64,000 nt of DNA from Ignavibacteriae bacterium HGW-Ignavibacteriae-1 (GCA_002839825.1 PGYU01000007.1:27165-91164), one strand, 5' to 3'. Positions 39,621-59,454 are shown, counted from the first letter of the stretch. The notes: a model not told the origin generated them from the sequence alone. Numbers and translations are program-made.

Positions 39621-39631
39621 TATTTCACCTT

Positions 39632-40561: not shown

Positions 40562-40571
40562 CGTTATTTCC

Positions 40572-42200: not shown

Positions 42201-42609
42201 CTTTCACTCCAATTAATTCAGCCAATTGCTTTTTCGCTCTGTATAATCTTGATTTAATAGTTTCTTCGCTTACATTCATAATTATACTCGCTTCCTTTCG
42301 TGAAAAGCCCTCAATTTCTGATAAAATCAGCGTTTCTCTGTAATCCGGCTTCAACTTATTCATTGCTTGTCGCAAAAATTGAATATCAATCATTACATCG
42401 GGATGCAATGAGTTGTCCATTAAATTGTCAAAATCAAAATCCTTTTCAAAGTTGGATTGAAATTTGATTGATTTGTAAAACACTCTACTTGCGATAGTAA
42501 ATACATAGCTTAAGAAAGCATCTTCACTCTTGAGTTTGGCAAATCCTAAGAAAGCCTGATAAAGAGTTTCGCTCAGTAATTCCTTTGCATCGTCGGTATT
42601 TCTAGTCAT
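42181..42609 (-). CDS. ECF-type RNA polymerase sigma-70 family factor (short).
   Basis: Region 2 (LLSETLYQAFLGFAKL) and region 4 (ETLILSEIEGFSRKEASIIMNVSEETIKSRLYRAKKQL) are present. Confidence 0.7.
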   Translation of the reverse strand: MTRNTDDAKELLSETLYQAFLGFAKLKSEDAFLSYVFTIASRVFYKSIKFQSNFEKDFDFDNLMDNSLHPDVMIDIQFLRQAMNKLKPDYRETLILSEIEGFSRKEASIIMNVSEETIKSRLYRAKKQLAELIGVKDEYRVK

Positions 42610-43969: not shown

Positions 43970-46801
43970 ATGAACATAATAAGTCATTTTAAAGATAGAG
44001 GAAAAGCAGTCACCATAACTTATAGCTTGGTTTTTGCTTTAATTGCCTACTTAGCATTTACGACACTCAACTCTGCGGTACAAGTAACAATGCCCGAAGA
44101 GAACGACGAATGCATGATGTGCCATGACGACAAAGATTTGAAAGGTACGCGCAAAGGCAAGAATATTTCGATGTATGTCAATCCCAATCACGTTTTGGGT
44201 TCAGTTCACGCTGAAGTAAAATGCGTTGATTGCCATACAGATTTAGCAGGAGTGGAATTGCCTCACGAGGACGATTTGAAGCCCGCAACTTGTGGTAAAT
44301 GCCACACTAAGCAGCAAAAGGATTTCGACATGAGCTTTCATGGTGTAGCACTCAAAAAAGGCGACCCTTTGGCGCCTAATTGTCAGTACTGCCACGGTAG
44401 CCACCAAATTGTTGATGCAAAGCACGAAAAATCGCCCGTGCAACCCCTCAAAATACCATTCATGTGTGGGAAATGCCACCAAGAAGGTGCACCCGTACAA
44501 ATGTCTAGGAATATTCCCCAATCGCATATCTTGGAAAATTATTCTGAGAGTATTCATGGTGAAGGTCTTTTCAAGCGCGGTTTAGTTGTGACTGCTACTT
44601 GCGTTTCGTGTCATACTGCACATGCGATTTTGCCACATACTGATAAGAGGTCTTCGATTGCACGTAATAATATTGCCGCAACGTGCTCTCAATGTCATGC
44701 GAGAATTGAAGATGTGCACAAAAAAATCATTGATGGCGAATTATGGGAGAAAGAAGCTCATACGCTGCCTGCTTGTGTTGATTGCCACCAACCTCATAAA
44801 GTTCGGAAATCGTTTTATGATGTAGGTTTAGCAAAAGCCGAGTGTTTGAATTGTCACCAAGATAAAAATATTAAAGCAAGCAAAGGCGGTCGCTCTCTGC
44901 ATGTTGATATAAGCAAATTAGACCATTCGGTACATTCAGACCTTGCTTGCAGTAAATGCCATATTGAGGTTCGCCCATCTAAAATTCGCTCTTGCGAAAC
45001 AATTACAACAAAAGTTAATTGTGGAAGTTGCCATGACAAAGTAAACGATAATTATATGCAAAGCAGCCATGGGAAGCTATTCTTAAGTGGTGAAAGTGAT
45101 GCTCCAACTTGTGTAACATGCCACAATGACCACGAAGTGCTCCCGAAGATTAATCCAATGTCTAAAACTTTTGCTATAAATATTCCTAACCTATGCTCAG
45201 AGTGTCACCAAGACGGACATCAAGCAGCGGTCAGGATGGAAGACAAGGTACAACATCTTACAGAAACTTATTCGGAGAGTATTCACGGGCAGGGCTTGAA
45301 ATCCGGCAGACTCAAAGTAACGGCGAATTGTTCGGATTGTCACTCTGCGCATATGGAAGCAAATCATGAAAATCCCGTATCCTCGACTCATAAGGACAAT
45401 ATTAGCACCACTTGTGGCAAGTGCCATTGGGGAATTCAGACTCAATTCGATAAAAGTATCCACTCGCCAATGGTATCAAAATCGGAAGATGACTTGCCAA
45501 ATTGTAACACATGCCATGTGGCTCACTCAGTAGTTGACCCATCAAAAGATGAGTTCAGATTGTCCATGTTGAATACCTGCGGCAAATGCCATGAAAAAAT
45601 TACTCACTTATATTTCGATACATATCACGGGAAGGCGTCACTTCTTGGTTCGGGCAAAGCTGCTAAATGCCAAGATTGCCATAGCGCCCATATGATATTA
45701 CCAACATCACACGCAAATTCGACACTTTCACGAGACAACATTGTCGAAACATGTGCAAAATGCCATCCCGCAGCTAATAAAGGCTTTACAAGGTATTTAA
45801 CTCATGCAACTCATCACGACCCGGAAAAATACCCACTGCTTTTCATCACATTTTGGGGTATGACAATACTTCTTCTCGGCACATTTCTGGTTTCATGGTT
45901 GCACACATTATTGTGGTTGCCAAAGTCATTAAAGATGCGAAAAGAGATGATGGTACTCAAAGCCGCTGGGCATTCTGGCAAACGCGTTAGGAGATTTACA
46001 CCATTGAACCGAATTTTGCACGTCACAATGATATTATGCTTCCTGACTCTTGCCGCCACAGGGATGATGCTCAAATTCTCATATGCTTGGTGGGCACAAT
46101 TCAGCGTTAAGTTGATTGGCGGAGTGGAAGTTACAGGCTTCTTCCATCGCTTTGCTGCAATAGTATTGTTCGGTGTATTCTTTACTCATATTTTCGATTT
46201 AATATTCAACAAACGTAAAGAATTTAGTTCATGGAAAGAAATGCTTTTGGGTTCGGATTCTCTTTTGCCAAATAAAAAAGATTGGGAAGATTTTATCGGC
46301 TCAATGAAATGGTTCTTCAACAAAGGACCGCGCCCGCAATACGGAAGATGGACTTATTGGGAAAAATTCGACTATTTTGCAGTATTTTGGGGGATTTTCG
46401 TAATTGGCTCAACCGGGCTTATGCTCTGGATACCCGAGTTTTTCACCAAATTTATGTCCGGACAATTCATTAACGTTGCTACTATTATTCATAGTGACGA
46501 GGCATTGCTTGCAGCAGGATTCATTTTCACCATACATTTCTTCAATACGCACTTCCGTCCGGAAAAATTCCCTATGGATACCGTAATTTTCTCAGGAAGT
46601 TATGATGTAGAAGAATTCAAATTCGACAGACCCGCCGAATATGAAAAATTGGTCGAAGAAGGGAAATTGGAAGAACTTTACGTTGACGCACCGACTCCGA
46701 CACAAAAGAAAGTTCATTCAATCTTTGGATGGGCAGCTTTATTAACCGGATTATTAATAGTCTTTTTAATAATTTATTCGATTATTAGCATTAACTTTTA
46801 A
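43970..46801 (+). CDS. Membrane-anchored 19-heme c-type cytochrome fused to a C-terminal FdnI/HydC-like diheme cytochrome b domain (CbcL-like).
   Basis: I count 19 CxxCH motifs between residues 48 and 600. The C-terminal 330 aa hold 4-5 TM helices with [25 protein letters not shown] and [18 protein letters not shown], matching the Ni/Fe-hydrogenase/formate-dehydrogenase b-type cytochrome family. Confidence 0.8.
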
Positions 46802-47378: not shown

Positions 47379-48545
47379 ATGAAAGACAAGAAGCATATAG
47401 TAATAGTATTCTCAATAGTTTTTGGGAGTATAATTATAGCGTTGATTGCTGACAGATTATTGCAACCTACAAGTTTCGGCAAATACGGACATTACCGTTG
47501 GGATGCCGTTAATGAGCTTCAGACTCAGAAAATCATAAATCAAAATACTAATACATGTAGTGAATGTCATAATGATATATATCAGTTGCATCAGAAGGAC
47601 GCTCATTTTAGTGTGCCTTGTGTTGACTGCCACGGTGCGGGAGATTTGCACGTTTCATTCTATAGAAAAGATGAAAACTCGAAGAATATCACCAAATTAC
47701 AAGCTGTACTGAAAAAAGAATTTGATTTCGAAGGTTGTCTTTATTGCCACCGGAAATTAAATGCTCGACCTTCTGACTTCCCTCAGATAAATCAGGAAGA
47801 GCATTACAAATTTATGCACGTAATTGATTCAACTACAAAATGTATTGCCTGCCATGATCCTCACGAGCCTATATTTCTATTGACTGAATCAAGACAGGCT
47901 CGTCTGCATCCAATAGTTTACAAATGTACTGATTGCCACAGTAAAAGACCCGAAAAGAATTATTATGATGTTGCCGACCATCCTAAGATATTCGAATGTA
48001 AAGATTGTCATTCCGAAATTGTCAAGGATTTCAACACTAAATCTCACAGTAACGCAGTTGAATGTCGAACATGCCATTTATTTCATAAAGAAGATGAGAC
48101 AATTGGACGAATGTATAAAAACGGAAACATGGAATTCTGTTTGCTTTGTCATGAAAAGAAACCCTTCAAAGATGCAGACTTTCCTCCTAAAGTTGAGTGG
48201 CCTTCCCACATTGGCAGTCTAAAACATATAGAAAAGACAGATACGAAATTATGTCTTGACTGTCACGCAAAGGATATTCATAAAATGGATTTAAGATTGA
48301 GGGGGAATCCGCATCCCGGAAATTGGAAAGCCGAACATAAGAAATATGCAAAGAGAACTTTTGCTTCTAATGACAAATCTGATTGTAAAAATTGTCATAC
48401 AAAGGATTATTGTATGTCCTGTCATTTGACAGAAATGCCACACCCGGTTGATTTTATGGATAATCACAAATTCACTGTTGAGAAAAAAGGGAAAAAAATG
48501 TGTGCAAACTGCCATAATACTGATTTCTGCGGTCAATGTCATTAA
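47379..48545 (+). CDS. Membrane-anchored 13-heme c-type cytochrome.
   Basis: An N-terminal TM helix precedes 13 CxxCH motifs, the last being CGQCH at the C-terminus. Confidence 0.8.
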   Translation: MKDKKHIVIVFSIVFGSIIIALIADRLLQPTSFGKYGHYRWDAVNELQTQKIINQNTNTCSECHNDIYQLHQKDAHFSVPCVDCHGAGDLHVSFYRKDENSKNITKLQAVLKKEFDFEGCLYCHRKLNARPSDFPQINQEEHYKFMHVIDSTTKCIACHDPHEPIFLLTESRQARLHPIVYKCTDCHSKRPEKNYYDVADHPKIFECKDCHSEIVKDFNTKSHSNAVECRTCHLFHKEDETIGRMYKNGNMEFCLLCHEKKPFKDADFPPKVEWPSHIGSLKHIEKTDTKLCLDCHAKDIHKMDLRLRGNPHPGNWKAEHKKYAKRTFASNDKSDCKNCHTKDYCMSCHLTEMPHPVDFMDNHKFTVEKKGKKMCANCHNTDFCGQCH

Positions 48546-48620
48546 ACGTATTTGAAATAAAATGTTTACGTATTATCAAGAGAAACAAATTGATTAAACA
48601 GTAAAATAAGGACATTTAAA

Positions 48621-49376
48621 ATGGATAATATAGAAAGAAGGCAATTCATAAAATGCGGTTTGTACAGTACAGCCGGAATACTTGTCGGGTCATTTTTTGC
48701 TTTCAGTAAAAGCAGCGACCCTATTGAAGTTCTAAAATATGAGGATTTGCTAAAGTTCGACTGGGGCTATATAGTTGATACTACAAGATGTATCGGCTGC
48801 GGTGCGTGCGTAAGAGCTTGTTCGGTAGAAAATAATGTACCTGATACATTTTTCAGAACGTGGGTTGAAAGATTTGAAATTAATAAGGATGAGCAGGTAA
48901 GGGTTGATTCACCGAACGGAGCAATGGAAGGTTTCAAAAATGACAATTTTGATACCGATATTGTTAAAGCATTCTTTGTACCAAAAATCTGTAACCACTG
49001 TCAAAATTCAGCCTGTACACAGGTTTGTCCTGTCGGAGCATCATACCATTCACCGGATGGTGTTGTACTGATAGACAAAGAACATTGCATTGGGTGCGGA
49101 TACTGCGTTCAGGCTTGCCCGTATAGCTGTAGATATATAGACCATAAAGTCGGTGTTGCGGATAAATGTACATTATGTTATCATAGGATTCACAAAGGCG
49201 AACTACCGGCTTGTGTAAATGCCTGTCCCCGTAATGCTCGGATTTTCGGCAATCTGAAAGACCCCGAAAGTAATATTCGTAAAATTCTACACAAAAGAAG
49301 ATATGGTATACTTAAACCTGAATTAGGAACTAATCCTAAATGCTTTTACATCGGACTTGATATGGAGGTTAAATAA
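48621..49376 (+). CDS. Tat-exported 4x[4Fe-4S] ferredoxin subunit (NrfC/PsrB/HybA family).
   Basis: Tat motif RRQFIK. Four Cys clusters: CIGCGACVRAC, CNHCQNSACTQVCP, CIGCGYCVQACP and CTLC...CVNACP. Confidence 0.85.
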   Translation: MDNIERRQFIKCGLYSTAGILVGSFFAFSKSSDPIEVLKYEDLLKFDWGYIVDTTRCIGCGACVRACSVENNVPDTFFRTWVERFEINKDEQVRVDSPNGAMEGFKNDNFDTDIVKAFFVPKICNHCQNSACTQVCPVGASYHSPDGVVLIDKEHCIGCGYCVQACPYSCRYIDHKVGVADKCTLCYHRIHKGELPACVNACPRNARIFGNLKDPESNIRKILHKRRYGILKPELGTNPKCFYIGLDMEVK

Positions 49377-50524
49377 TGGAAACGGCACAAAATTTCCTTT
49401 TCCCCAATGAAATGCATATTTACTGGACAGTTATGATTGTCTTATATCCATATATCACAGGTATGGTTGCAGGTGCTTTTATAGTATCGTCATTTTATCA
49501 TGTTTTTGGTATGGAAAAACTCAAGCCAATCGCAAAATATGCACTTGTTTCATCACTTGCATTTTTACTTTTCGCGACAGTACCGCTCCTTAATCATCTC
49601 GGCAGACCCGAAAGAGCATTTAATATTATGCTGACGCCGAATTTTAATTCTGCTATGAGCGGTTTTGGCTTTGTTTATGCATTTTATATGTTAATTGTTG
49701 TATTGGAAATCTGGTTCAGTTACAGAAAGGAATTTATAGAAAAGTATAAGCAGTCAAAGGGATTTGTAAAGTTCATTTATAAGGTCCTTATTCTCGGCAA
49801 TACAAATGATAATCTTAATACAAGAAGATATGACAATAAAATGGTTGTTGTCTTGGGTGCAATCGGAATACCGGTGGCGTGTATTCTGCACGGATATGTT
49901 GGTTTTCTATTCGGTTCTTTAAAGGCAAATCTATGGTGGTCAACTCCTCTGATGTTTATTATTTTCATATTTTCGGCAATTGTTTCCGGCTTGGCGGTTC
50001 TGACATTTCTATATTTGTTTGTACATTGGAAAAGAAAACTTAAAATCAATCAGGAAGCTATTGATTTAATGTCAAAATGGCTTTGGGGGTTTATGATAAT
50101 AGCAGTTACACTCGAACTAATGGAGGTTTTGTCTATTGCTTATGAACAAACAGAAAAATGGGAAATCCTACATCAACTAATATACGGCAAACTTAAGGTC
50201 TCGTATTTATATCTACAGATTGGACTGTTTTCCATTGTGCCGTTTTTAATTCTTACAATTACATCATTAGTGAAATTTGATAACAGAATAAGAAATTTTT
50301 TGATTTGGCTCTCATCCGGCATGTTGTTAATTCAGGTTTTGCTGATGCGCTGGAATGTAGTTATCGGAGGACAGTTAGTATCCAAAAGTATGAGAGGATT
50401 TACAGAATATTTTCCGGGCTTATTAGATAAAGAGGGTTTATTAGTTTCATTTTTACTGATATTTATTCCATTTTTATTATTAAGAGCTTTTGATAAATTT
50501 TTCCCGTTTTTCGAGAAACAATAG
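49376..50524 (+). CDS. NrfD/PsrC-family integral membrane quinol-interacting subunit.
   Basis: 382 aa with ~9-10 TM helices and an NrfD-like N-terminus (HIYWTVMIVLYPYITGMVAGAFIV). The start overlaps the upstream stop (ATAATGG). Confidence 0.8.
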   Translation: METAQNFLFPNEMHIYWTVMIVLYPYITGMVAGAFIVSSFYHVFGMEKLKPIAKYALVSSLAFLLFATVPLLNHLGRPERAFNIMLTPNFNSAMSGFGFVYAFYMLIVVLEIWFSYRKEFIEKYKQSKGFVKFIYKVLILGNTNDNLNTRRYDNKMVVVLGAIGIPVACILHGYVGFLFGSLKANLWWSTPLMFIIFIFSAIVSGLAVLTFLYLFVHWKRKLKINQEAIDLMSKWLWGFMIIAVTLELMEVLSIAYEQTEKWEILHQLIYGKLKVSYLYLQIGLFSIVPFLILTITSLVKFDNRIRNFLIWLSSGMLLIQVLLMRWNVVIGGQLVSKSMRGFTEYFPGLLDKEGLLVSFLLIFIPFLLLRAFDKFFPFFEKQ

Positions 50525-50858: not shown

Positions 50859-51434
50859 TTAGGGGAGCCGATTAACATTGTAGTTGAGCAAGACAATCCC
50901 ACAATCGAATGATTTGGCTTGAATAAGTTTTAGATTGTGAATTGCTCCGAGCTTGTCGAAAATCTGCATACCGCTCCCAATTGCTGCCGGGTTGACGAAA
51001 ATATGATAATCGTCTATCAGATTATGCTTTATTAAATTCGATACGAATTCTGCTCCTCCATAAGCGATTATGTCTTTTCCGGGAATATTTTTCAAAGCAT
51101 TAATTTCACTTACTAAATCATTTTTAGCTAAAATAGTATTGTCCCACTCAGAATTTTTTAAAGTATTTGAAAAAACTACTTTCGGTGTTTCGGTAAATTT
51201 AATTCCTGCAGCATTTTCAGGATTGTCGGGGTCAGATGCTACACCAGCCCAATATGGGATAAAACCGGTTGCGAGCTTTCTGCCAAGCACGATGCAATCT
51301 ATACTATCTGTAAGCTCCTGAACGTAGGACATAAGTTCCTTGTCCCAATTCCAAGTAACCCAATCCATTTCGCCATTTGGACCAGCAATAAAACCATCTA
51401 TAGTCATCTGTACTTGCAATTTCAATTTACGCAT
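50859..51434 (-). CDS. Dihydrofolate-reductase-like (RibD C-terminal domain) family protein.
   Basis: N-terminus: KLQVQMTIDGFIAGPNGEMDW. Also IAYGGAEFVSNLIKHNLIDDYHIFVNP. Confidence 0.75.
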   Translation of the reverse strand: MRKLKLQVQMTIDGFIAGPNGEMDWVTWNWDKELMSYVQELTDSIDCIVLGRKLATGFIPYWAGVASDPDNPENAAGIKFTETPKVVFSNTLKNSEWDNTILAKNDLVSEINALKNIPGKDIIAYGGAEFVSNLIKHNLIDDYHIFVNPAAIGSGMQIFDKLGAIHNLKLIQAKSFDCGIVLLNYNVNRLP

Positions 51435-51680: not shown

Positions 51681-53111
51681 ATGAAAATACTATACTTTGT
51701 TGTTACATTTATGTTGATAATCGCCAATTATGGGACTTTAAGTTCGATAGAAAACGATGATTGCATGATGTGTCATTCTGATCCCGATATGTATATGGAA
51801 AAGGGGCGTTCAAAAATTTCTCTATGGGTGGATAATTCAAAGTTTATGTTTTCTGCCCATAAAAATGTGAAATGTATAGACTGCCACAAGGGATTCGACC
51901 CCGATGATATCCCGCATAAAGAAAATATTGGGAAAATTGATTGCAACTCATGTCATCAAGGAGTCGAAAAAAAGCATACCTTCCACCCATGGATGGCAGA
52001 TGCTCCTTTGCAAAACGATTGCAAAAAATGTCATGGCTATCATTATGCAACTCCGGCTAAGGGCAAAGGCAGCAAGGTCTCCGGCATTCATTCTCTTCAA
52101 CAATGCGGCACTTGCCATCAAGATGTGGTTGACGAATATATGAAATCGGAGCATTACAAAGCATTATTGAGCATCTCGGACGAAAATGCCCCCGATTGCA
52201 ATTATTGCCATAGTAAACCCATCACTAAGGGCTGGATTGGAAATTATATTGAGCGAAAAGCAAACCAAAACCAAGTTTGTACAGATTGCCATAGTCACGA
52301 CACCAAAAATCCCTCGGTCATCAAAACGATAACAAATTCTAATTCGAGGCATTTCCAACTGAAAGCTGAAGGTAAAGAGCACGCTGCAGTATGTACGGAT
52401 TGCCACGGATTTCATAATATTAAGAAAAATGAGGATTTTGAAGCTCGTCTCAGTGTCAAAAATTCATTCTCTGCGTGTGGCAAATGCCACGTTCATATCG
52501 CCCAAGAATATCAAAACAGTATCCACGGGTTGGCTCAAATCAAAGGCAATATGGATGCTGCATCGTGCGTCAGTTGCCATTTCGAACATGATTTGAAAAA
52601 GGTTCCACACGTAGATGAAGCCATTTTCAAAAGTAATAAATTAAACAAACAATTTGCCATAGACAGCAAAATGATTTATTGCGTTTCTTGCCATGGCGAT
52701 TCGGAATTAATGGGCAAAAGCAATATCAAATCATTGTTGGAATCACATTCGTGGTTGCCGGAACTCGAAAGCCATTTTTCCGCAGTATCTTGTTTCGATT
52801 GTCATTCGAGTTATACGGTACCGTATTTATCGCATAATATATTACCTTTGGAAAAAAGTGTCAAAACTTGCAATCCATGCCACGAGCAGGACATGAATTT
52901 GAAATCTAAATTGGCAAATTATTACAAGACACGAAAAACCGGAGAATCCGGAATAATTGACGGCACAATAGGCGGTGGCAGTTACGTTGGCTTGTCTCGG
53001 AGTGTAATTCTTGATAATCTAAGTTTTATACTTCTGGGAGGCGTATTTATTGGTTTACTCGCTCATGGTTATATTAGATGGTACTTCAGAAGCAAAAAGG
53101 AATCAAAATGA
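51681..53111 (+). CDS. 13-heme c-type cytochrome with N- and C-terminal membrane anchors.
   Basis: I count 13 CxxCH motifs. The N-terminus CMMCHSD resembles the 43970 protein's CMMCHDD. A C-terminal hydrophobic helix is present. Confidence 0.8.
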   Translation: MKILYFVVTFMLIIANYGTLSSIENDDCMMCHSDPDMYMEKGRSKISLWVDNSKFMFSAHKNVKCIDCHKGFDPDDIPHKENIGKIDCNSCHQGVEKKHTFHPWMADAPLQNDCKKCHGYHYATPAKGKGSKVSGIHSLQQCGTCHQDVVDEYMKSEHYKALLSISDENAPDCNYCHSKPITKGWIGNYIERKANQNQVCTDCHSHDTKNPSVIKTITNSNSRHFQLKAEGKEHAAVCTDCHGFHNIKKNEDFEARLSVKNSFSACGKCHVHIAQEYQNSIHGLAQIKGNMDAASCVSCHFEHDLKKVPHVDEAIFKSNKLNKQFAIDSKMIYCVSCHGDSELMGKSNIKSLLESHSWLPELESHFSAVSCFDCHSSYTVPYLSHNILPLEKSVKTCNPCHEQDMNLKSKLANYYKTRKTGESGIIDGTIGGGSYVGLSRSVILDNLSFILLGGVFIGLLAHGYIRWYFRSKKESK

Positions 53112-55270
53112 AAAAGTTAGAACTATACCCGATTTGGATTAGAATTTGGCATATTTTGCAAGGTATTTTATTTCTTCTTCTTTTGATTTCCGGTGTTGGT
53201 ATGCATTTTGGGATTGTACCGATTGGCTTTTCATTGCCAATCCATATTTATTCCGGTATCACGATGTCGGTACTATATATACTATTTTTCGTAATGAATT
53301 TCGCAACCGGGAATGCAAAACATTATTTCAAAATTCAAAAAGGGACAGTAAAGAAATTTTTTGTAGAATTAAAATATTATTTTTGGGATATATTTATTCA
53401 GCAAGAATTGGCATACGACCCGGAAATCATTAAATTCGGTGTTTTCAAGCAATTATTATATTTGAAAATAATGTATATAGTTATTCCATGTATTATTATT
53501 ACAGGATTAATTATTTTGATACCAAATCTGATGCCTGAAACGATTTTTGGTAGCTCAGGTGTTTGGGTTATTACGCTGATTCACACGATAATGGGATTCT
53601 TCCTGACTGCGTTTTTCCTTTTGCACTTATATTTGGGTACAACAGGCAAGACAGTTGGTCAATTATATAAAGCAATTGCAAGCGGTAGTCTGGAATACGA
53701 AGAAAAAATACCGGAACAAGAATTACCATCGGATTTAGTAAAGAAAAAGAAATTCTTCCCGACATCATTTTATAATCCGCTTACAATGCTCGGCTCATTA
53801 TTAGCATTAATGGCATTTGTAGTGATTATCGGACTATTATTTGTTGACATAATTGCAGGATTTGACAATCCCTATATCGGCATTGTTACATTCATTTTCT
53901 TACCTATAATTCTTGGTCTCGGTATAGTATTGATATTTCTCGGGGCTTTATGGGAAAGCAAAAAACGTTTTCTTGCCCAAAAGAAAGATAAACCATTGCC
54001 AATAATAGATTTAAATAGTCCCAAAACCCAAAGAATAATAGCATTTATGTCAATTATTGGTGTGATTTTGTTATTATTCACAGTATTCGGCTCGTTTAAA
54101 GCTTACGAATATACGGAATCTGATGAGTTTTGCGGCGAGGCATGTCATCAGGTTATGCACCCTGAATATTTGGCATATCAAGATTCTCCGCATTCAAATG
54201 TGGGATGCGTCAAATGCCACATCGGTTCAGGTGCAGATTGGTTTGTCAAAGCCAAGTTGTCCGGTAGTTGGCAGCTGATTTCGGTTATGTTTGATTTGTA
54301 TTCAAAACCGATTCAAGTGCCTGTTGCTCATCTACGTCCTGCCCAAGAGACTTGTGAGCAGTGCCATTGGCCCGCTAATTTCAATAGCGAAAAGAAAATA
54401 GTCTATGATTTTTTCCAATCGGACGAAGTCAATTCCGAAACGATGTTGACAATGTTACTCAAAACCGGTGGTGGTACACCTGAAAGCGGTAGGCAATCCG
54501 GGATTCATTGGCATATGAATCTCGCTAATGAGATTCATTATATTGCAAATGATTACGAGCGCCAAGATATTCCTTGGGTGAGAGTGGTTTCAAAATTGAC
54601 CGGCGATACGACTATTTATATCAGAGAAGACGACGAAATAACACCGGATATGCTCGAGCCCGAAAAATTACGGAAAATGGATTGTATTGATTGCCACAAC
54701 AGACCATCGCACATTTACAAGATTCCTTACAAGGAAGTAAATACATATATGTCGAATCGCAAAATTGACAATTCACTGCCATTTATCAAAAATCTCGCCG
54801 TCCAAATACTCGAATCATATTCGATTAATCGCGAAAATTCATTGGCGGAAATTAGTAATTATATAAATAATTTTTATAATAAATATTACCCTGAAACAGC
54901 GAAGGGGAAAAAGCATCAGATTCAGCAATCAATCCACCACATTAACACAATTTATTTGCGAAATTATTTCCCGGAAATGCATACAAATTGGAAACGATTC
55001 CCGAATAATTTGGGGCATATGTATTCCGATGGGTGCTTCAGATGCCACGACGGTAAACACAAATCAGCTGACGGGAAAGTGGTGAGCCACGATTGCAATG
55101 TTTGTCATACAATTATTTCACAAAAAACGCCCGGTCAAATTGAAGAAACACGCGGTTTAGACTTGGAATTCAAGCATCCCGGTGGCGAAAATCTCAACAT
55201 CGAAAACAGACTTTGTTCCGACTGTCATGGCATTAAACAAGTGAAAAACATACAGGCATTCAAAAAATAA
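53108..55270 (+). CDS. Fusion of an FdnI/HydC-like cytochrome b (N-terminal) with a periplasmic 7-heme NapC/NirT/ImcH-like c-type cytochrome (C-terminal).
   Basis: The ATG at 53108 follows AAGGAA and overlaps the upstream stop by 4 nt. N-terminal motifs: IWIRIWHILQGILFLLLLISGVGMH and ITLIHTIMGFFLTAFFLLHLYLG. Seven CxxCH motifs follow, including CVKCHIGSGADWFVKAK, which is NapC/NrfH-like. Confidence 0.75.
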   Translation: MKKLELYPIWIRIWHILQGILFLLLLISGVGMHFGIVPIGFSLPIHIYSGITMSVLYILFFVMNFATGNAKHYFKIQKGTVKKFFVELKYYFWDIFIQQELAYDPEIIKFGVFKQLLYLKIMYIVIPCIIITGLIILIPNLMPETIFGSSGVWVITLIHTIMGFFLTAFFLLHLYLGTTGKTVGQLYKAIASGSLEYEEKIPEQELPSDLVKKKKFFPTSFYNPLTMLGSLLALMAFVVIIGLLFVDIIAGFDNPYIGIVTFIFLPIILGLGIVLIFLGALWESKKRFLAQKKDKPLPIIDLNSPKTQRIIAFMSIIGVILLLFTVFGSFKAYEYTESDEFCGEACHQVMHPEYLAYQDSPHSNVGCVKCHIGSGADWFVKAKLSGSWQLISVMFDLYSKPIQVPVAHLRPAQETCEQCHWPANFNSEKKIVYDFFQSDEVNSETMLTMLLKTGGGTPESGRQSGIHWHMNLANEIHYIANDYERQDIPWVRVVSKLTGDTTIYIREDDEITPDMLEPEKLRKMDCIDCHNRPSHIYKIPYKEVNTYMSNRKIDNSLPFIKNLAVQILESYSINRENSLAEISNYINNFYNKYYPETAKGKKHQIQQSIHHINTIYLRNYFPEMHTNWKRFPNNLGHMYSDGCFRCHDGKHKSADGKVVSHDCNVCHTIISQKTPGQIEETRGLDLEFKHPGGENLNIENRLCSDCHGIKQVKNIQAFKK

Positions 55271-55283
55271 ATTCATAATTAAA

Positions 55284-55412
55284 CAATTCATCCGATGACT
55301 TTCGAGTCATCGGATGAATATAGAATGGATATTTCTTATGGACATCAACAGCGTTCTATCCAAATTTCCGTCATTTTTAGCCACCGACGAAGAATCAAGT
55401 TTTCATAAAAAT
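55284..55412. repeat. ~130-bp intergenic repeat element, copy B.
   Basis: caATTCATCCGATGACTttcgAGTCATCGGATGAATAt...GGACATCAACAGCGTTCTATCC...GAAGAATCAAGTTTTCA. Confidence 0.65.
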
Positions 55413-55596
55413 ACATGAATTACTCATTTCGTTCAAAATGACAAATGGAGCTTGATACTGCGTATGTATAAGTCCCTGAATTATTATTATGATGCTTAAC
55501 TTATATAATTTACAAATAGAAAGTTAGTATTAAATATAATAGTTTAAGATTTTATTCGTAATGCTTTCTAATTTTAAAACAAGGAAGTATTTAATT

Positions 55597-56790
55597 ATGT
55601 TTAGATTATTATTACTAATAGTTTTTCTTTTTACAGTAATAAACTCCTATGCTCAATGGGTGAGAGTAGAGCAATTGCCGCAGATTTATATAACCGGTAT
55701 TGCCCTTAATGATGAAACAATATTTGTGGCAGCAGATACATGCATTATTTTCAAAAGTACCGACAATGGGCAAAATTGGCAAAGTATAAACTTTGACTAT
55801 AATGAAGCCGGAGCTTCAAATATATCATATCTGAATGGTAAAATTTATGTGGGAACTATTGCCCATGGCGTTTATGTCAGTACTGATAACGGTAATTCGT
55901 GGAATAATAAAGGTCCCTCAATGATGCCTGTCTCCGGTTTTTCAGAATTTAAAGGTGAAATTTATTGCTCAACATTAGGAGACGGTGTTTTTGTTGAGAC
56001 TACAAGCTCTTGGGTGCGAATGAATAACGAATTACCTACCTATTCCCAACAAATATACACAATGACTTCGACTCCTAATAATTTACTAATATCAGCGGGG
56101 TCTAACGGTGTTTGGTACAGATACGATTTTGAAATTGGTAAATGGATTGAAGGGTATTTTGACGAGGGTTTATCTCCCGGAATGGAAATCTGGAAGATGA
56201 TTTATGATAACGGTATCTGTTACGCTTCAGCACGAAATAGAATATTTTCGAGTACAAATGATGGAGAAAAATGGGTACAGGATATTGTGGGTACAAAGAA
56301 TGGTACAGATAGGATAATGTACGCAGGAAAAGAACATATATACGCACTCACAAATTCAAGCATGGTTGGTGTCTGGATTCAGAAGCGTTATAAGAATTTG
56401 CCCGCCGGCTCTACTTGGAGCAACGATGAGGAGTTTGTAAATAATGTTTACGCTTTCGACATCCTCGAATACGACGACAAGCTGTTCCTTGCAACCGACA
56501 GAGGACTTTATATAAAGCCCTTAAGTAATACTCATGTTGACTATGAAAATTCAAGCCAGGTTGAAATTTTTCCCAATCCGACTTCAGACGGTTTTGTTCA
56601 AATCAGGAATTCAGAAATAATTAATAAATATGAAATTTTCGATATAACAGGCAGAATTGTCCATAAAGAAAACATCAATGATAATGAGCTTGTTCTTTCT
56701 TTAGACCTCGATTCGGGATTGTATTACGTATCCATAAATTGTTTAAACGGACAAAATTTCTTTATCCCTCTATTAGTTGGCAAATACTGA
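55597..56790 (+). CDS. BNR-like beta-propeller protein with a T9SS C-terminal domain.
   Basis: The ATG at 55597 follows AAGGAAG and the signal peptide reads MFRLLLLIVFLFTVINSYAQ. Repeats STDNGQNW, STDNGNSW and STNDGEKW. C-terminus: EIFPNPTSDGFVQI...GLYYVSINCLNGQNFFIPLLVGKY. Confidence 0.5.
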   Translation: MFRLLLLIVFLFTVINSYAQWVRVEQLPQIYITGIALNDETIFVAADTCIIFKSTDNGQNWQSINFDYNEAGASNISYLNGKIYVGTIAHGVYVSTDNGNSWNNKGPSMMPVSGFSEFKGEIYCSTLGDGVFVETTSSWVRMNNELPTYSQQIYTMTSTPNNLLISAGSNGVWYRYDFEIGKWIEGYFDEGLSPGMEIWKMIYDNGICYASARNRIFSSTNDGEKWVQDIVGTKNGTDRIMYAGKEHIYALTNSSMVGVWIQKRYKNLPAGSTWSNDEEFVNNVYAFDILEYDDKLFLATDRGLYIKPLSNTHVDYENSSQVEIFPNPTSDGFVQIRNSEIINKYEIFDITGRIVHKENINDNELVLSLDLDSGLYYVSINCLNGQNFFIPLLVGKY

Positions 56791-57117
56791 TTTTTCGCCC
56801 CGTCAGTGTTACAATTGTGAAATAAAGAGCCTGTTTTACAGTATTTCAACTGATTGAAAAAGCAAATTCTCGTCAGTAATAACAAAGACAGGACAAAATC
56901 CTGTCCAGTCATTACTCTTCTACTTATTGCAATAACTTATTTACTCGAACGTGCTTTTTTTTATGAAAAATGAATGTATCATGATTATATCAAATCATGC
57001 AACTAACTCTTGTTGCGGCTTTAAGTATTCCGGATTATCAGACATGTATAGAGGAGAAATCCACTAAGGTTTAACTTATTTTAGTTCATTTTGAGGTATG
57101 GTAGGATGTATGCTTGT

Positions 57118-59454
57118 ATGAAAAAAAGCTTATTAATTGTTCTAATTATGTTCCTATCCTCCGTTTACGGTCGTACTCAGGTTCTGTATATCAACGAAGT
57201 CATGTCGTCCAACAACCAATTCTACTTTGACGAAGACGGGGACGATAGTGATTGGATTGAAATTTACAACAATTCCGGCGAGCCTGTCAATCTCGCAGGA
57301 TACTGCTTATCTGATAAAGCATCGCAACTTAATTGCTGGAGTTTCCCCAATGTAGTGATTGAAGGATATGACTACCTTGTTGTATTTGCATCGAACAAGA
57401 ATCGCGCTGAAATAGGCAAAGAGTTGCATACGAATTTTGCAATAGCTGCCGATGGCGAGGACCTCTTTCTTAGCTACGGCGGGCAAATTGTTCATATGTT
57501 GCCGGCGAAGACGCTTGAGAGCAACACAAGCTATGGACTTTTCCCGGATGGTCATGACCAAACCTTCGTCTTTGCAAACCCCACTCCCGGTGCAGCCAAT
57601 TTTTACCAAGAATCAAATGAACAAGTGCATTTTTCGCATGTGGGTGGGATTTACGACCAAGTTTTTAATTTGGAGTTAGCAAGTAATCATCCTGAAAATA
57701 GAATATTTTATACAACGGATGGTAGCACTCCTACTGCCGAATCAATGTTATACGAATCCGCTCTTGAACTCGATACATCATTTCATTCTCAACGAAACAT
57801 ATCTCAAATTTTGGTTACACCACCATCGGCGCACCAAGCACCCGCCATTACTGATGTCCCAAAGGCTATAATCATCAAAGCAGCTGTTTTTGACGATAAA
57901 GGCAACATGATTAGCGAAGTTACAACTCATTCGTACTTTTTCCAATCATTAAATATAAATCATAATAGCCTTCCAATAATCTCGATTTCAGCGGATTATG
58001 ATGATTTGTTTGATTACCACACCGGAATTTTGGTTCCCGGAGTTAATTGGGATGCATCTAACCCCAATATTACCGGTAATTACGTACTTAGAGGAATTAA
58101 TTGGGAACGCGAAGCGTATGCCGAATTTTATGAATCAAATAATCAAATAGGATTTAAACAAAAGGTAGGTTTAAGAACTCATGGGGCAAATTCCCGTCTT
58201 AAATCACAAAAGGGGCTTAAAATTTATGCAAGAAGTAAGTATGTATTGTCTAAATTTAATTATAAGCTCTTCGATGATAGGACCACTAATATTTTTAACA
58301 CACTTATATTAAAACCATTTTCTGTATCATGGAATCTCACAGGTGCAGAAGATTACACTGCAAATAAATTGGTAGTAGGGTTGGATGTTGATGGTGTGGC
58401 ATCGCGTCCTGTGGTATTGTATCTCAATGGCGAATATTGGGGCGTATATTATATTTCTGAGAGAATTGATGAAGATTATTTAGAGACATATCACGATGTT
58501 GACCCGGATAATGTTGATATTATTGGAACTTGGTATGGTACTCCCGAAAGCGGAGACAATACAGCTTATCTGGAAATGTATGAATTTGTCAAAAACAATG
58601 ATTTCTCCGATGATGCAAATTACAAGGAAATTTGCAAAATAATTGATATTGATAATTTTATTGATTATCAGATTTTTCAAATATATATTGCCAATTATGA
58701 TTGGCCCGCAAATAATTTCAGATGTTGGCGTTCAAAAACTCCCGGTAGCAAGTGGAGATTTGCTTTCTTTGATGGTGATGCTTGTTTTATGAGTCATAAG
58801 AAAGATATGTTTGAACATGCTACAGATACATCCGACAACGTCTGGCCCACTAATGCCGGGTCTACTATGATTTTCAGGAAAATGTTGGAAAATGATATTT
58901 TCTTAAATAAATTCCTAATTAGAATAGAAAACATTTTAAATCAATTTTTATATTATAATAAATCTTCTGTTTTTCAAAAAACTGTATTTCATTTTTTAGA
59001 GCCGGAAATTACTAAACAAATTAAACGCTTTTCACATCCTATGGATTACGATGATTGGACATATATGATGATTGTATTAAATTATTTTTTAGAAGGAAGA
59101 ACATGTTCGCTAAAGGAACAAATTTACGAAAAATATGGAATTGACCTTTATATCATTGAATGTTTACATGATTCAGTTAAAGATGATCCCAAGTTCAACA
59201 ACACTCTCAAAATCTTCCCCAATCTGACAACAGGCAACTTTCGGATTAAATTTATTCCCAAGTATTCAGGTAATTATGAATTTTATCTGACAAATTTAAT
59301 GGGTGAAAAGATTTATTTAGAAAGTAGATATTTACATCAAGAGTTAGCACATACCGGCTTGTATAACATATCCTTATCACCCGGAATTTATTATATTGCA
59401 ATCCAAGGCGATAAGGAGTATTGTTCGGGGAAAATAATTATTATTACTGAATAA
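57118..59454 (+). CDS. CotH-kinase-family protein with an N-terminal lamin-tail domain and a C-terminal T9SS sorting domain.
   Basis: The track start at 57091 is TTG, and MKKSLLIVLIMFLSSVYG at 57118 is a signal peptide. The LTD region reads INEVMSSN...DWIEIYNNSGEPVNLAGYCLSD. The CotH-like region reads NGEYWGVYYISERIDEDYL...DWPANNFRCW. C-terminus: KIFPNLTTGNFRIKF...GIYYIAIQGDKEYCSGKIIIITE. Confidence 0.55.
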   Translation: MKKSLLIVLIMFLSSVYGRTQVLYINEVMSSNNQFYFDEDGDDSDWIEIYNNSGEPVNLAGYCLSDKASQLNCWSFPNVVIEGYDYLVVFASNKNRAEIGKELHTNFAIAADGEDLFLSYGGQIVHMLPAKTLESNTSYGLFPDGHDQTFVFANPTPGAANFYQESNEQVHFSHVGGIYDQVFNLELASNHPENRIFYTTDGSTPTAESMLYESALELDTSFHSQRNISQILVTPPSAHQAPAITDVPKAIIIKAAVFDDKGNMISEVTTHSYFFQSLNINHNSLPIISISADYDDLFDYHTGILVPGVNWDASNPNITGNYVLRGINWEREAYAEFYESNNQIGFKQKVGLRTHGANSRLKSQKGLKIYARSKYVLSKFNYKLFDDRTTNIFNTLILKPFSVSWNLTGAEDYTANKLVVGLDVDGVASRPVVLYLNGEYWGVYYISERIDEDYLETYHDVDPDNVDIIGTWYGTPESGDNTAYLEMYEFVKNNDFSDDANYKEICKIIDIDNFIDYQIFQIYIANYDWPANNFRCWRSKTPGSKWRFAFFDGDACFMSHKKDMFEHATDTSDNVWPTNAGSTMIFRKMLENDIFLNKFLIRIENILNQFLYYNKSSVFQKTVFHFLEPEITKQIKRFSHPMDYDDWTYMMIVLNYFLEGRTCSLKEQIYEKYGIDLYIIECLHDSVKDDPKFNNTLKIFPNLTTGNFRIKFIPKYSGNYEFYLTNLMGEKIYLESRYLHQELAHTGLYNISLSPGIYYIAIQGDKEYCSGKIIIITE

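What the first reader, a model, noticed from the sequence alone, without database searches (positions are those of the whole stretch)
51681..55270. Translationally coupled 13-heme cytochrome plus a novel cytochrome b::7-heme NapC/ImcH-like fusion
The second gene starts at an ATG inside the upstream stop (ATGA overlap at 53108-53111) with AAGGAA 6 nt upstream. Its N-terminus is an FdnI/HydC-type b cytochrome (IWIRIWHILQG..., ITLIHTIMGFF...HLYLG). Its C-terminus has 7 CxxCH, including CVKCHIGSGADWFVKAK that is reminiscent of the NapC/NrfH quinol-dehydrogenase heme 2 region. A b-type domain fused to an ImcH-like 7-heme domain combines the two Geobacter inner-membrane EET entry points in one polypeptide.
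Basis: partly seen in the sequence, partly recalled or inferred. Interest (0 to 1): 0.65.

Follow-up and report, generated by a model that had tools for sequence, protein, structure and literature searches.

The report
CbcB-type cytochrome b fused to ImcH
Two overlapping genes encode a membrane complex that joins, in one assembly, two quinol-oxidising cytochrome modules that the model metal-reducer Geobacter keeps separate (CbcBA-like and ImcH), so the finding is real, conserved in a bacterial lineage, and a new variant of known parts rather than a new kind of system.

Summary
Gene A (51681-53111) encodes a 476-aa protein with 13 CxxCH motifs, a signal peptide and a C-terminal membrane helix. 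Gene B (53108-55270, 720 aa) starts in an ATGA overlap with A's stop codon.

B is a true fusion, not a frameshift. There are 73 full-length relatives in independent assemblies of Ignavibacteria, Kapabacteria and related groups.

- **N-terminal part (residues 1-195):** a four-helix dihaem cytochrome b with all four His ligands. It is closest to stand-alone ~204-aa "thiosulfate-reductase-like" cytochromes b. Those are encoded just after 7-haem cytochromes with a His-bearing C-terminal helix, the arrangement published for Geobacter CbcBA.
- **Gene A:** its C-terminal half aligns with those 7-haem proteins.
- **C-terminal part (residues 214-720):** a complete ImcH. It has three helices, CX3CH plus six CXXCH, and the conserved Lys and Gln of the quinol site. 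It is 42% identical (E 2e-147) to a Geobacter ImcH.

One correction: the first motif is CX3CH, the ImcH hallmark, not CxxCH.

The best reading is a CbcA-like/CbcB::ImcH menaquinol:cytochrome c oxidoreductase with two quinol sites. Direction and coupling are inferred.

I found no description of this fusion in the searched literature. It is a new variant of a known kind, of moderate to high interest.

The parts
51681..53111 (+). Gene A: a 476-aa periplasmic 13-haem c-type cytochrome with a signal peptide and a C-terminal membrane anchor. It reads as an extended CbcA-like protein.
   Evidence: 13 CxxCH, with all 26 Cys in these motifs. Multihaem Pfam families match. Residues 191-476 align with whole 7-haem CbcA-like proteins at 27-30% identity, E 1e-20 to 8e-28. 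A 13-haem homologue lies directly upstream of every other fusion locus examined.
53001..53075 (+). C-terminal transmembrane helix of A (residues ~441-465, LSFILLGGVFIGLLAHGYIRWYF), carrying a conserved His.
   Evidence: Detected by Kyte-Doolittle scan. The His and the preceding SYV(I/V)G.TR...LD motif are shared with the 7-haem cytochromes encoded upstream of stand-alone CbcB-like genes. The published CbcA description places a b-haem His ligand in this helix (10.1101/2021.04.15.440034).
53097..53111 (+). Coupling junction: AAGGAA (53097-53102), a 5-nt spacer, then ATGA (53108-53111) in which B's start overlaps A's stop.
   Evidence: Read directly from the sequence. TAATG overlaps occur in L001/L002, L004 and L005, and an ATGA overlap in the cbcA/cbcB-like pair of L089.
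53108..55270 (+). Gene B: a 720-aa, seven-helix fusion protein of cytochrome b and ImcH.
53108..53692 (+). CbcB-like dihaem cytochrome b domain (residues 1-195) with four helices. Proposed His ligands are H15, H46, H159 and H173.
   Evidence: PF01292 E 3.5e-15. Best NCBIfam match is PhsC, 104 bits, below its 204-bit cut-off. HyaC hit in the PDB profile search. FdnI by Foldseek. The four His are 97-100% conserved in 40 fusions and 43 stand-alone relatives.
53693..53767 (+). Cytoplasmic linker (residues ~196-220), variable in sequence and Lys-rich.
   Evidence: pLDDT is below 50 for residues 199-217. The alignment has no consensus here. K+R count is 7 in the loop 177-223.
53768..54115 (+). The three ImcH transmembrane helices (residues ~221-336).
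   Evidence: AF2 helices at 224-250, 255-290 and 305-336. This region aligns with residues 10 onward of Geobacter ImcH.
54116..55267 (+). ImcH periplasmic 7-haem domain (residues 337-720). Motifs: CX3CH at 342-347 (DNA 54131-54148), then CXXCH starting at residues 367, 416, 526, 643, 663 and 703. Quinol-site residues are E337, K383, Q389 and Y398.
   Evidence: Motifs. Residue spacing is identical to the published ImcH E127/K173/Q179/Y188. K and Q are conserved in 73/73 fusions. NrfH matches are TIGR03153 E 5.8e-13 and PDB 2j7a_C E 8.5e-5.
55286..55319 (.). Perfect 15-bp-stem hairpin 16 nt after B's stop codon. It is the likely end of the two-gene operon.
   Evidence: No clear T-run follows on the + strand, so its function as a terminator is inferred only.

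Best explanation
The two genes form one operon encoding an inner-membrane menaquinol:periplasmic-cytochrome oxidoreductase built from three known modules.

**Shown**
- **Gene A** is a 13-haem periplasmic cytochrome. Its last seven haems and its His-bearing C-terminal helix are CbcA-like.
- **Gene B** begins with a CbcB-like four-helix dihaem cytochrome b.
- B continues, through a ~25-residue cytoplasmic linker, into a complete ImcH with three helices and seven c haems.
- Both redox modules keep their cofactor ligands and the ImcH quinol-site residues.
- The topology places all 20 c haems in the periplasm.

**Inferred**
- A's anchor helix packs on the b domain, as FdnH/HyaA anchors do on FdnI/HyaC and as proposed for CbcA on CbcB.
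- The complex then has two quinol sites.
  - **ImcH site:** on the periplasmic face, next to the His/Gln haem 1. It is electroneutral and releases protons outside.
  - **b-domain site:** near the cytoplasmic b haem. Electrons there are driven outward by the membrane potential, at an energy cost.
- Both routes load a shared periplasmic pool of c haems (7 + 13), which hands electrons to periplasmic or extracellular acceptors.
- Which route carries current would depend on acceptor potential. Geobacter achieves this with separate ImcH (high potential) and CbcBA (lowest potential) proteins.
- The fusion fixes 1:1 stoichiometry and proximity.
For: **Fusion and conservation**
- 73 full-length fusions exist.
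- They form one clade nested among Ignavibacteria ImcH sequences.

**ImcH part**
- 42% identity, E 2e-147, across the whole of a 507-aa Geobacter ImcH orthologue.
- CX3CH plus six CXXCH in 72/73 fusions.
- K+36 and Q+42 conserved in 73/73, and an acidic residue at -10 in 72/73.
- These match the residues proposed for the ImcH menaquinol site.

**b part**
- PF01292, PhsC-like, HyaC and FdnI matches.
- Four His conserved.

**CbcBA-like pairing**
- The three nearest stand-alone relatives whose contigs I examined (P0401, P0404, P0425), 32-42% identical and ~204 aa, each follow an overlapping 7-haem gene.
- That gene's C-terminal helix and motif match A's.
- A residues 191-476 align with these 7-haem proteins.
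- This fits the published description of CbcBA.

**Functional linkage of ImcH with b-type modules in general**
- 47 of 80 stand-alone ImcH loci from species-representative genomes have a gene containing a cytochrome b ending within 200 nt upstream on the same strand. The figure is 52 of 80 within 3 kb.
- A second, independent cyt b::ImcH fusion exists in a [NiFe]-hydrogenase operon.

**Topology**
- K+R counts are 2, 7, 7 and 3 in the inside loops and 0, 0 and 0 in the outside loops.
Against: - There is no experimental datum for any member of this fusion family.
- I could not compare the b domain or A directly with Geobacter CbcB/CbcA (GSU0593/0594). The CbcBA assignment rests on architecture, the published description and intermediate relatives.
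- The AF2 model of B is only moderate (pLDDT 69, pTM 0.51). No coordinates were available, so contacts between the b domain, the ImcH helices and A are not shown.
- The position of a quinol site in the b domain is extrapolated from FdnI/PhsC-class proteins.
- No outer-membrane conduit gene is evident next to the operon in the window, so an extracellular acceptor is not shown.
- If both sites were reversible and electronically connected, the complex would risk a proton-leaking short circuit. The simple two-route model does not explain how this is avoided.
Confidence: 0.6

Rival explanations
1. The b domain has no quinol site of its own. It is a docking platform and electron relay. It binds A's anchor helix and passes electrons between the ImcH haems and the 13-haem chain. 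ImcH is then the only quinol-oxidising site.
For: In L009 and L012, sister loci to the fusion clade, an anchored 13-haem cytochrome is encoded right before a stand-alone ImcH with no cytochrome b. ImcH and such a cytochrome may therefore work together without b haems.
Against: All four b-haem ligands are conserved across fusions and stand-alone relatives, along with many other residues. A transmembrane pair of haems is unnecessary for a purely periplasmic relay. The stand-alone CbcB-like/CbcA-like pairs function without ImcH.
Confidence: 0.15
2. The complex runs in the uptake direction. Electrons from a periplasmic or extracellular donor enter through the c haems and reduce menaquinone at the b domain, as proposed for MtoC/CbcL-family proteins of iron oxidisers.
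For: FdnI/HyaC-class cytochromes b normally reduce quinone. CbcL/MtoC homologues occur in both reducers and oxidisers (PMC6295460). The hydrogenase-linked fusion in L090 must take electrons in through its b domain.
Against: ImcH has been implicated only in quinol oxidation (PMC6295460; preprint). Nothing in the window points to lithotrophic iron oxidation.
Confidence: 0.12
3. An internal redox loop or bc1-like Q cycle. Quinol is oxidised at the ImcH site on the outer face. One electron goes to the c-haem chain and one crosses the membrane through the b haems to re-reduce quinone on the inner face. This raises the number of protons exported per electron.
For: The parts needed are present in one polypeptide. 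There is an outer-face quinol site next to a high-spin-prone haem, a transmembrane haem b pair and a c-haem exit chain. Two independent fusions of a cytochrome b to the N-terminus of ImcH exist.
Against: There is no evidence for haem bP lying close to the ImcH quinol site. ImcH haems are all low-potential (-150 to -350 mV), which gives little driving force for bifurcation. CbcBA use in Geobacter gives the lowest yields.
Confidence: 0.08
4. B is the membrane anchor of a catalytic reductase (thiosulfate/polysulfide reductase, formate dehydrogenase or hydrogenase) rather than part of a cytochrome-only electron-export module.
For: The best NCBIfam hit of the b domain is PhsC. The unrelated fusion P0179 does sit in a hydrogenase operon.
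Against: No molybdopterin, Fe-S or hydrogenase gene lies in the A-B operon, either in the window or in L001-L005 and L007. The PhsC score is 104 against a cut-off of 204. The nearby Fe-S/NrfD genes at 48621-50524 have their own membrane subunit and are separated from the operon by an opposite-strand gene.
Confidence: 0.03
5. The fusion is an artefact: two adjacent genes joined by a sequencing frameshift or mis-assembly.
Against: There are 73 full-length fusions of 640-750 aa in independent assemblies from NCBI, JGI, ENA and Logan. The linker and helix topology are consistent.
Confidence: 0.01

Closest known systems
ImcH (GSU3259) of Geobacter sulfurreducens, a 7-haem inner-membrane menaquinol oxidase for high-potential acceptors
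   Same: Residues 214-720 of B are a complete homologue. They share three helices, a first motif of CX3CH followed by six CXXCH, and the Lys, Gln, acidic and Tyr residues around haem 1 at identical spacing. Identity to a 507-aa Geobacter orthologue is 42%.
   Different: Here ImcH is the C-terminal two-thirds of a larger protein, preceded by a dihaem cytochrome b. Its gene is coupled to a 13-haem cytochrome gene. Geobacter imcH is monocistronic and stand-alone.
CbcBA (GSU0593-0594) of Geobacter sulfurreducens, a bc-type quinol oxidase needed near -0.21 V
   Same: A multihaem cytochrome with a His-bearing C-terminal helix is encoded immediately before a ~200-aa, four-helix, "thiosulfate-reductase-like" dihaem cytochrome b.
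   Different: A has 13 haems, not 7. The b subunit is fused to ImcH. No sigma-54 regulator lies next to the operon in the window. Direct sequence comparison with GSU0593/0594 was not possible.
CbcL (GSU0274), a 9-haem cytochrome c fused to a six-helix HydC/FdnI-like cytochrome b
   Same: It is also a natural b-c fusion acting at the quinone pool. A's haem domain is 33% identical to the haem domain of CbcL-like proteins encoded upstream of stand-alone ImcH genes.
   Different: The domain order is opposite (c then b). The b subfamily is different: hhalign gives 16% identity and probability 89%. The window has a separate CbcL-like gene at 43970-46801.
NrfH/NapC/CymA (NapC/NirT family tetrahaem quinol dehydrogenases)
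   Same: The region from the last helix through haems 1-3 is homologous. Matches are PF03264, TIGR03153 E 5.8e-13 and PDB 2j7a_C E 8.5e-5. The conserved Lys after haem 2 is included.
   Different: B's ImcH part has seven haems, three helices, CX3CH and a Gln distal residue. NrfH has CXXCHxM with Met/Asp coordination. The NrfH equivalog cut-off is not reached (49 against 134 bits).
FdnI / HyaC / PhsC (PF01292 dihaem cytochrome b anchors of formate dehydrogenase-N, hydrogenase-1 and thiosulfate reductase)
   Same: A four-helix fold, four His ligands with two of them 14 residues apart in helix 4, and a partner subunit contributing a C-terminal helix.
   Different: There is no catalytic partner. 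The periplasmic partner is a multihaem cytochrome.

Membership tests
ImcH | Full-length sequence homology to Geobacter ImcH | tested here: met
   B residues 221-707 align with residues 10-491 of P0367 at 42% identity, E 1.9e-147. P0367 is a 507-aa "cytochrome c3 family protein [Geobacter]" with H137, E127, K173, Q179 and Y188, as published for GSU3259. P0367 differs from GSU3259 in at least one C-terminal residue inferred from a published primer, so it is an orthologue and not necessarily the PCA protein.
ImcH | Three transmembrane helices preceding the haem domain | tested here: met
   AF2 helices at 224-250, 255-290 and 305-336. Hydropathy peaks at 221-257, 253-285 and 306-334.
ImcH | Atypical CX3CH first motif followed by six CXXCH | tested here: met
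   CGEACH at 342-347 followed by six CXXCH. The same pattern occurs in 72/73 fusions. The feature is defined in PMC4251993 and PMC6295460.
ImcH | Conserved haem-1 / quinol-site residues (Gln distal ligand, Lys, Glu, Tyr) | tested here: met
   E337, K383, Q389 and Y398 lie at -10, +36, +42 and +51 from the haem-1 His, as in ImcH. K and Q are conserved in 73/73 fusions, D/E in 72/73 and Y in 58/73.
ImcH | Stand-alone ~500-aa protein from a monocistronic gene (Geobacter type) | tested here: not met
   Here it is fused behind a cytochrome b and coupled to gene A.
ImcH | Required for reduction of acceptors above about -0.1 V | not testable with these tools
   This needs genetics or electrochemistry.
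CbcBA | ~200-aa four-helix dihaem cytochrome b annotated as thiosulfate-reductase-like | tested here: met
   Residues 1-195. The best NCBIfam match is PhsC. There are four helices. Stand-alone relatives are 202-220 aa.
CbcBA | Partner multihaem cytochrome with a C-terminal helix carrying a His, encoded immediately upstream | tested here: met
   A's helix is LLAHGYIRWYF. The same His and motif occur in all eight partner proteins compared: gene A, the four upstream 13-haem proteins of L001, L003, L004 and L005, and the three 7-haem proteins of L087-L089. Starts overlap.
CbcBA | Seven-haem CbcA | tested here: not met
   A has 13 CxxCH. Only its last seven align with the 7-haem relatives.
CbcBA | Direct sequence similarity to GSU0593/GSU0594 | not tested
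   The sequences could not be fetched.
CbcL | N-terminal multihaem domain fused to a six-helix cytochrome b with His in helices 1-3 and two in helix 5 | tested here: not met
   The domain order in B is reversed and the b domain has four helices. A profile of CbcL-like b domains does not hit B. hhalign gives probability 89% and 16% identity.
NapC/NirT (NrfH, CymA) | Pfam PF03264 match above the gathering score | tested here: met
   34.6 bits against 24.1, at residues 307-396.
NapC/NirT (NrfH, CymA) | Single N-terminal helix and four (or five) haems; NrfH equivalog score | tested here: not met
   Three helices and seven haems. TIGR03153 scores 49 bits against a cut-off of 134.
PF01292 dihaem cytochrome b (FdnI/HyaC/PhsC) | Four helices with four His ligands, two of them 14 residues apart in helix 4 | tested here: met
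   H15, H46, H159 and H173 are conserved at 97-100%. FdnI is the top Foldseek hit. HyaC aligns over the whole domain.
PF01292 dihaem cytochrome b (FdnI/HyaC/PhsC) | Adjacent genes for the catalytic subunits | tested here: not met
   No such genes occur in the operon, in the window or in related loci.

The most novel reading that the evidence does not exclude
The fusion builds a self-contained energy-conserving device. The outer-face quinol site (ImcH) and the inner-face quinone site (cytochrome b) are wired by a transmembrane haem pair.

Electron export to extracellular acceptors would then proceed through a bc1-like Q cycle or internal redox loop. In the hydrogenase-linked sister fusion of L090, the path would be H2 -> b haems -> quinone -> ImcH -> periplasm.

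This would be the first non-Rieske, all-haem Q-cycle machine. It would imply that ImcH generally works together with a bc partner.
Probability: 0.08. Interest if true: 0.85.

Novelty: new variant of a known kind. Interest (0 to 1): 0.6.

Why it matters
In Geobacter, three separate inner-membrane quinol oxidases (ImcH, CbcL, CbcBA) are used in different windows of acceptor potential. How the cell gates them, and how much energy each conserves, is unresolved.

This locus shows that another lineage has welded an ImcH to a CbcB-type cytochrome b and coupled it to a CbcA-like cytochrome.

The related loci show a wider pattern. Outside Geobacter, ImcH genes usually sit directly behind a gene containing a cytochrome b: 47 of 80 loci. 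In a sample biased toward Ignavibacteria- and Acidobacteriota-type relatives, that linkage was the commonest arrangement (47 of 80 loci), though 21 loci showed no detectable upstream partner.

It gives a concrete, testable system for three questions:
- Do the two quinol sites talk to each other?
- Does potential-dependent route switching happen inside one complex?
- Does Geobacter ImcH also need a bc partner?

Practically, the family is mis-annotated or under-annotated as "cytochrome b/b6 domain-containing protein". It could serve as a marker of electron-export capacity in Ignavibacteria/Kapabacteria genomes.

Tried and rejected
- **Fetching G. sulfurreducens imcH by primer sequence.** I searched genome contigs for a 27-mer rebuilt from published primers. 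It gave no match. I reached a Geobacter orthologue another way: representative search, then cluster look-up, then a second homologue search.
- **Foldseek against the PDB with a better model of the ImcH part alone.** The model had pLDDT 75.6 and pTM 0.67. There was no hit with E <= 0.001, not even NrfH. The haem 1-3 region is poorly modelled without haems, so this neither supports nor weakens the assignment. The NrfH relationship rests on HMMs.
- **Sigma-70 promoter scan of the operon.** 21 sites were found against 19.4 expected, which is no signal.
- **Simple boundary-shift origin.** I considered that B's b domain arose by a gene-boundary shift from the CbcL-like::cyt b + ImcH operons common in relatives. 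I rejected this because the b domains belong to different subfamilies.
- **L011.** tblastn suggested a second fusion in the genome scan. ORF analysis shows two separate genes 12 nt apart.
- **Strict check for E/K/Q/Y.** It first seemed to fail, with 18/73 passing. Per-position counts show this is only E/D and Y/F variation.
- **Literature searches for a described cyt b::ImcH fusion or cbcL-imcH adjacency.** They found none. Absence from that library is not proof.

Full report
**1. Observation**

The ORF at 51681-53111 (+) encodes 476 aa.
- It has exactly 13 CxxCH motifs. These use all 26 of its cysteines.
- It has a hydrophobic N-terminal signal-like segment and one C-terminal hydrophobic helix at ~441-465.

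The next gene starts at ATG 53108.
- The sequence AAGGAATCAAAATGA shows AAGGAA at 53097-53102, a 5-nt spacer, and ATGA at 53108-53111 in which the start overlaps A's TGA.
- An upstream in-frame ATG at 53078 is listed by the ORF tool. The homologue consensus begins at the 53108 position.

B is 720 aa.
- Its C-terminal half has one CxxxCH (CGEACH, residues 342-347) followed by six CxxCH.
- Pfam finds PF01292 (cytochrome b) at residues 7-185 and PF03264 (NapC/NirT) at residues 307-396.
- NCBIfam finds PhsC-like at residues 2-193 and NrfH-like at residues 316-423, both below the equivalog cut-offs.

**2. Is the fusion real?**

A search of 5.8 billion proteins returned 73 full-length two-domain homologues of 640-750 aa at 42-94% identity.
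- They come from NCBI, JGI, ENA and Logan assemblies.
- Where named, they are from Kapabacteria, Ignavibacteria, Chloroherpetonaceae or Bacteroidota MAGs.
- They are annotated only as "cytochrome b/b6 domain-containing protein", [quoted passage not shown], or hypothetical.

In a 40-sequence alignment the invariant residues include:
- His33, His46, His159 and His173;
- the cysteines and histidines of haem motifs 1, 2 and 4-7 (motif 3, C416/C419/H420, is conserved in at least 90% of sequences);
- Lys383 and Gln389.

The segment between the domains (~196-220) has no consensus and has pLDDT below 50 in the AF2 model.

AF2 secondary structure and hydropathy give seven helices. Lys+Arg counts are 2, 7, 7 and 3 in the predicted cytoplasmic segments and 0, 0 and 0 in the periplasmic loops. 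The b domain's C-terminus and the ImcH N-terminus are therefore both cytoplasmic, and the haem c domain is periplasmic. A frameshift artefact is excluded.

At 50% clustering, only one full-length representative of this fusion (P0121) appears among the best 150 of 666 strong ImcH-family representatives. In an NJ tree of the ImcH part, the fusions other than L003 form a single clade. L003 sits apart on a long branch, which I attribute to domain extraction. That clade is nested within Ignavibacteria stand-alone ImcH sequences. The fusion is thus a lineage-specific invention.

**3. The C-terminal part is ImcH**

The papers defining ImcH give these features (PMC4251993; PMC6295460):
- three transmembrane helices;
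- a NapC/NirT-like region;
- seven haem motifs, of which the first is CXXXCH.

A biochemical study adds a His137/Gln179 haem 1 and conserved E127, K173 and Y188 at the proposed menaquinol site (10.1101/2023.05.03.539133).

In B, E337, K383, Q389 and Y398 lie at exactly the same offsets (-10, +36, +42, +51) from the haem-1 His347.

I obtained a Geobacter orthologue, P0367. It is 507 aa, named "cytochrome c3 family protein [Geobacter]", with H137, E127, K173, Q179 and Y188. B residues 221-707 align with its residues 10-491 at 42% identity, E 1.9e-147.

Conservation of the site residues:

| Position | Fusions (73) | Ignavibacteria stand-alone (45) | Geobacter-type (119) |
|---|---|---|---|
| Lys (+36) | 73 | 45 | 119 |
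| Gln (+42) | 73 | 45 | 119 |

The acidic position is D or E in 72/73 fusions.

Foldseek with a separate model of this part found no solved relative. A sequence search of the PDB found no ImcH structure.

**4. The N-terminal part is a CbcB-type cytochrome b, and A is CbcA-like**

The b domain matches:
- HyaC over its whole length in the PDB profile search;
- FdnI as top Foldseek hit, probability 1.0, TM 0.62.

H15, H46, H159 and H173 are 97-100% conserved, with the last two 14 residues apart as in FdnI.

It is not the b domain of the CbcL-like proteins found next to most ImcH genes. hhalign between the two families gives probability 89% and 16% identity. A profile of the CbcL-like type does not hit B.

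A search with residues 1-205 returned 43 stand-alone proteins of 202-220 aa. The three whose contigs I examined each follow, with overlapping start, a 291-328-aa cytochrome with 7 CxxCH. The C-termini of those cytochromes share with A:
- the motif SYV(I/V)G.TR...LD;
- a transmembrane helix with a conserved His.

A residues 191-476 align with these whole proteins at 27-30% identity, E 1e-20 to 8e-28.

This is the architecture published for Geobacter CbcBA (10.1101/2021.04.15.440034):
- a seven-haem CbcA anchored by a C-terminal helix that is thought to donate a b-haem His;
- a four-helix "thiosulfate reductase-like" CbcB.

I could not obtain GSU0593/0594 for a direct comparison, so membership is not proven.

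A 13-haem A-like gene lies directly upstream of every other fusion locus examined.
- These are L001/L002 (one locus, two assemblies), L003, L004, L005 and L007.
- The junction is a 1-nt overlap in L001/L002, L004 and L005.

**5. Wider pattern**

The best 80 were kept. Of those 80, one is a fusion locus (L007) and the rest, together with L006, make the 80 stand-alone ImcH loci counted below.

| Nearest same-strand upstream gene detected by my queries | Within 3 kb | Ending within 200 nt |
|---|---|---|
| Multihaem::cytochrome b gene of CbcL-like architecture | 39 | 37 |
| Cytochrome b gene (itself preceded by a 19-haem gene) | 13 | 10 |
| Anchored multihaem cytochrome only | 7 | 4 |
| None detected | 21 | - |

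So 47 of 80 have a b-containing gene ending within 200 nt upstream. These loci come from Ignavibacteriota, Acidobacteriota, KSB1, Verrucomicrobiota, Omnitrophota and others. The sample is biased toward relatives of the query. It does not include Geobacter, where imcH is monocistronic.

Among the family representatives, P0179 (771 aa) is a second, independent fusion. It is a HyaC-type b domain joined to ImcH, encoded between a [NiFe]-hydrogenase large subunit (PF00374, E 7e-185) and a HycI protease.

Two independent fusions at the same junction, plus the common adjacency, argue that ImcH modules work physically together with dihaem b modules.

**6. Mechanism**

Shown:
- the parts and their cofactor ligands;
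- the topology;
- the conservation;
- the gene coupling.

Inferred from FdnGHI/Hya-class structures and the published proposals for ImcH and CbcBA:
- A's anchor helix binds the b domain.
- ImcH oxidises menaquinol at the periplasmic face, which is electroneutral.
- The b domain oxidises menaquinol near its cytoplasmic haem and sends electrons outward with the help of the membrane potential.
- Both routes fill a 20-haem periplasmic network that reduces periplasmic carriers or extracellular acceptors.
- The acceptor potential decides which route runs.

Alternatives I cannot exclude are a relay-only b domain, reverse (uptake) operation, and an internal Q cycle or redox loop. They are listed with refuting tests under rival explanations. 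The two-site model leaves open how a proton-leaking short circuit between the sites is prevented.

**7. Context in the window**

All four haem-rich ORFs of the 64-kb window lie between 43.9 and 55.3 kb:
- a CbcL-like protein of 19 haems plus a six-helix b domain (43970-46801);
- a 13-haem cytochrome with a TAT Fe-S protein and an NrfD-like subunit (47379-50524). This is similar in make-up to Geobacter Cbc4;
- the A-B operon.

A RibD_C gene on the opposite strand (50859-51434) separates the operon from the upstream genes. A perfect 15-bp hairpin at 55286-55319 follows B.

Flanking genes carry type IX secretion sorting domains. This fits a member of the Bacteroidota/Ignavibacteriota group. The window's G+C content is 37%.

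**8. Novelty and verdict**

- A survey of ImcH homologues reported only three-helix or one-helix forms and no b fusion (PMC6295460).
- None of my five literature searches found a description of a cytochrome b::ImcH fusion or of cbcL-imcH operons.
- The proteins exist in public databases under generic names.

The finding is therefore real and conserved. It is a new variant (a domain fusion and operon architecture) of known quinol-oxidising cytochrome modules. It is of moderate to high interest to people working on extracellular electron transfer. It is not categorically new.

Noticed in passing
window 43970-46801 (+): A 943-aa protein with 19 CxxCH motifs fused to a CbcL-type cytochrome b domain (residues ~611-905, plus a further C-terminal helix). 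It hits my profile of the b domains found upstream of stand-alone ImcH genes at E 1e-100. The organism therefore also has a CbcL-like protein, 5 kb from the operon.
   Followed up: partly
window 47379-50524 (+): Three tightly packed genes. They encode a 388-aa cytochrome with 13 CxxCH, a 251-aa four-cluster Fe-S protein (NrfC/DsrO/TtrB-like) and a 382-aa NrfD-family membrane protein. This is a third type of quinol:cytochrome module, similar in make-up to Geobacter Cbc4 (CbcSTU). All four haem-rich ORFs of the window, with 52 c-haem motifs in total, lie within 11.3 kb.
   Followed up: partly
L090 1-4297 (Logan SRR22507543 contig): An independent cytochrome b::ImcH fusion (P0179, 771 aa). It has a HyaC-type b domain, CX3CH plus six CXXCH, and comes from a high-G+C organism. 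It is encoded between a [NiFe]-hydrogenase large subunit and a HycI maturation protease. The hydrogenase membrane anchor is fused to ImcH.
   Followed up: partly
L006-L086 (80 stand-alone ImcH loci): In 47 of 80 loci, a gene containing a cytochrome b ends within 200 nt upstream of the ImcH homologue on the same strand. In 37 of these it is a multihaem::cytochrome b protein of CbcL-like architecture with 9-19 haems. The loci span Ignavibacteriota, Acidobacteriota, KSB1 and others. I found no paper describing this adjacency.
   Followed up: partly
L009 8536-11524 and L012 8536-11521: In these sister loci to the fusion clade, an anchored 13-haem cytochrome is followed 34 nt later by a stand-alone ImcH with no cytochrome b between them. 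The cytochrome's C-terminal helix has no His. This may be an intermediate or a loss form.
   Followed up: no
L088 1735-6615; L089 1-9954: Stand-alone cbcA/cbcB-like pairs occur in telling company. In L088 they sit next to an MtrA-like decahaem-type cytochrome and an MtrB/PioB porin. In L089 they sit next to a sigma-54 activator with a histidine kinase and a molybdopterin oxidoreductase with an EB_dh haem subunit.
   Followed up: no
P0215 (JGI, 645 aa): An ImcH homologue with an N-terminal Macro domain (PF01661, E 1e-22), from a 3.7-kb contig. It may be a gene-call merger or an odd fusion.
   Followed up: no
window 29569-32637 (+): A 1022-aa protein with YadA-head repeats and a C-terminal Peptidase_S74 (endosialidase chaperone) domain. 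It is an adhesin-like or tail-fibre-like protein, followed by three ORFs with no Pfam match.
   Followed up: no
window 38433-42200 (-), 55561-56790 (+), 57091-59454 (+): Several secreted proteins carry type IX secretion C-terminal sorting domains. They include BNR/Ycf48-like beta-propellers and a CotH-domain protein. They flank the cytochrome region. An ECF sigma factor lies at 42181-42609 (-).
   Followed up: no
L003 3166-8000: Upstream of one fusion operon lie a 357-aa multihaem cytochrome, a 394-aa protein with no Pfam match, a Rieske protein and a monohaem cytochrome c. Another fusion locus (L005) has the ccm haem-attachment genes immediately upstream, and MarR plus two more multihaem cytochromes downstream.
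   Followed up: no
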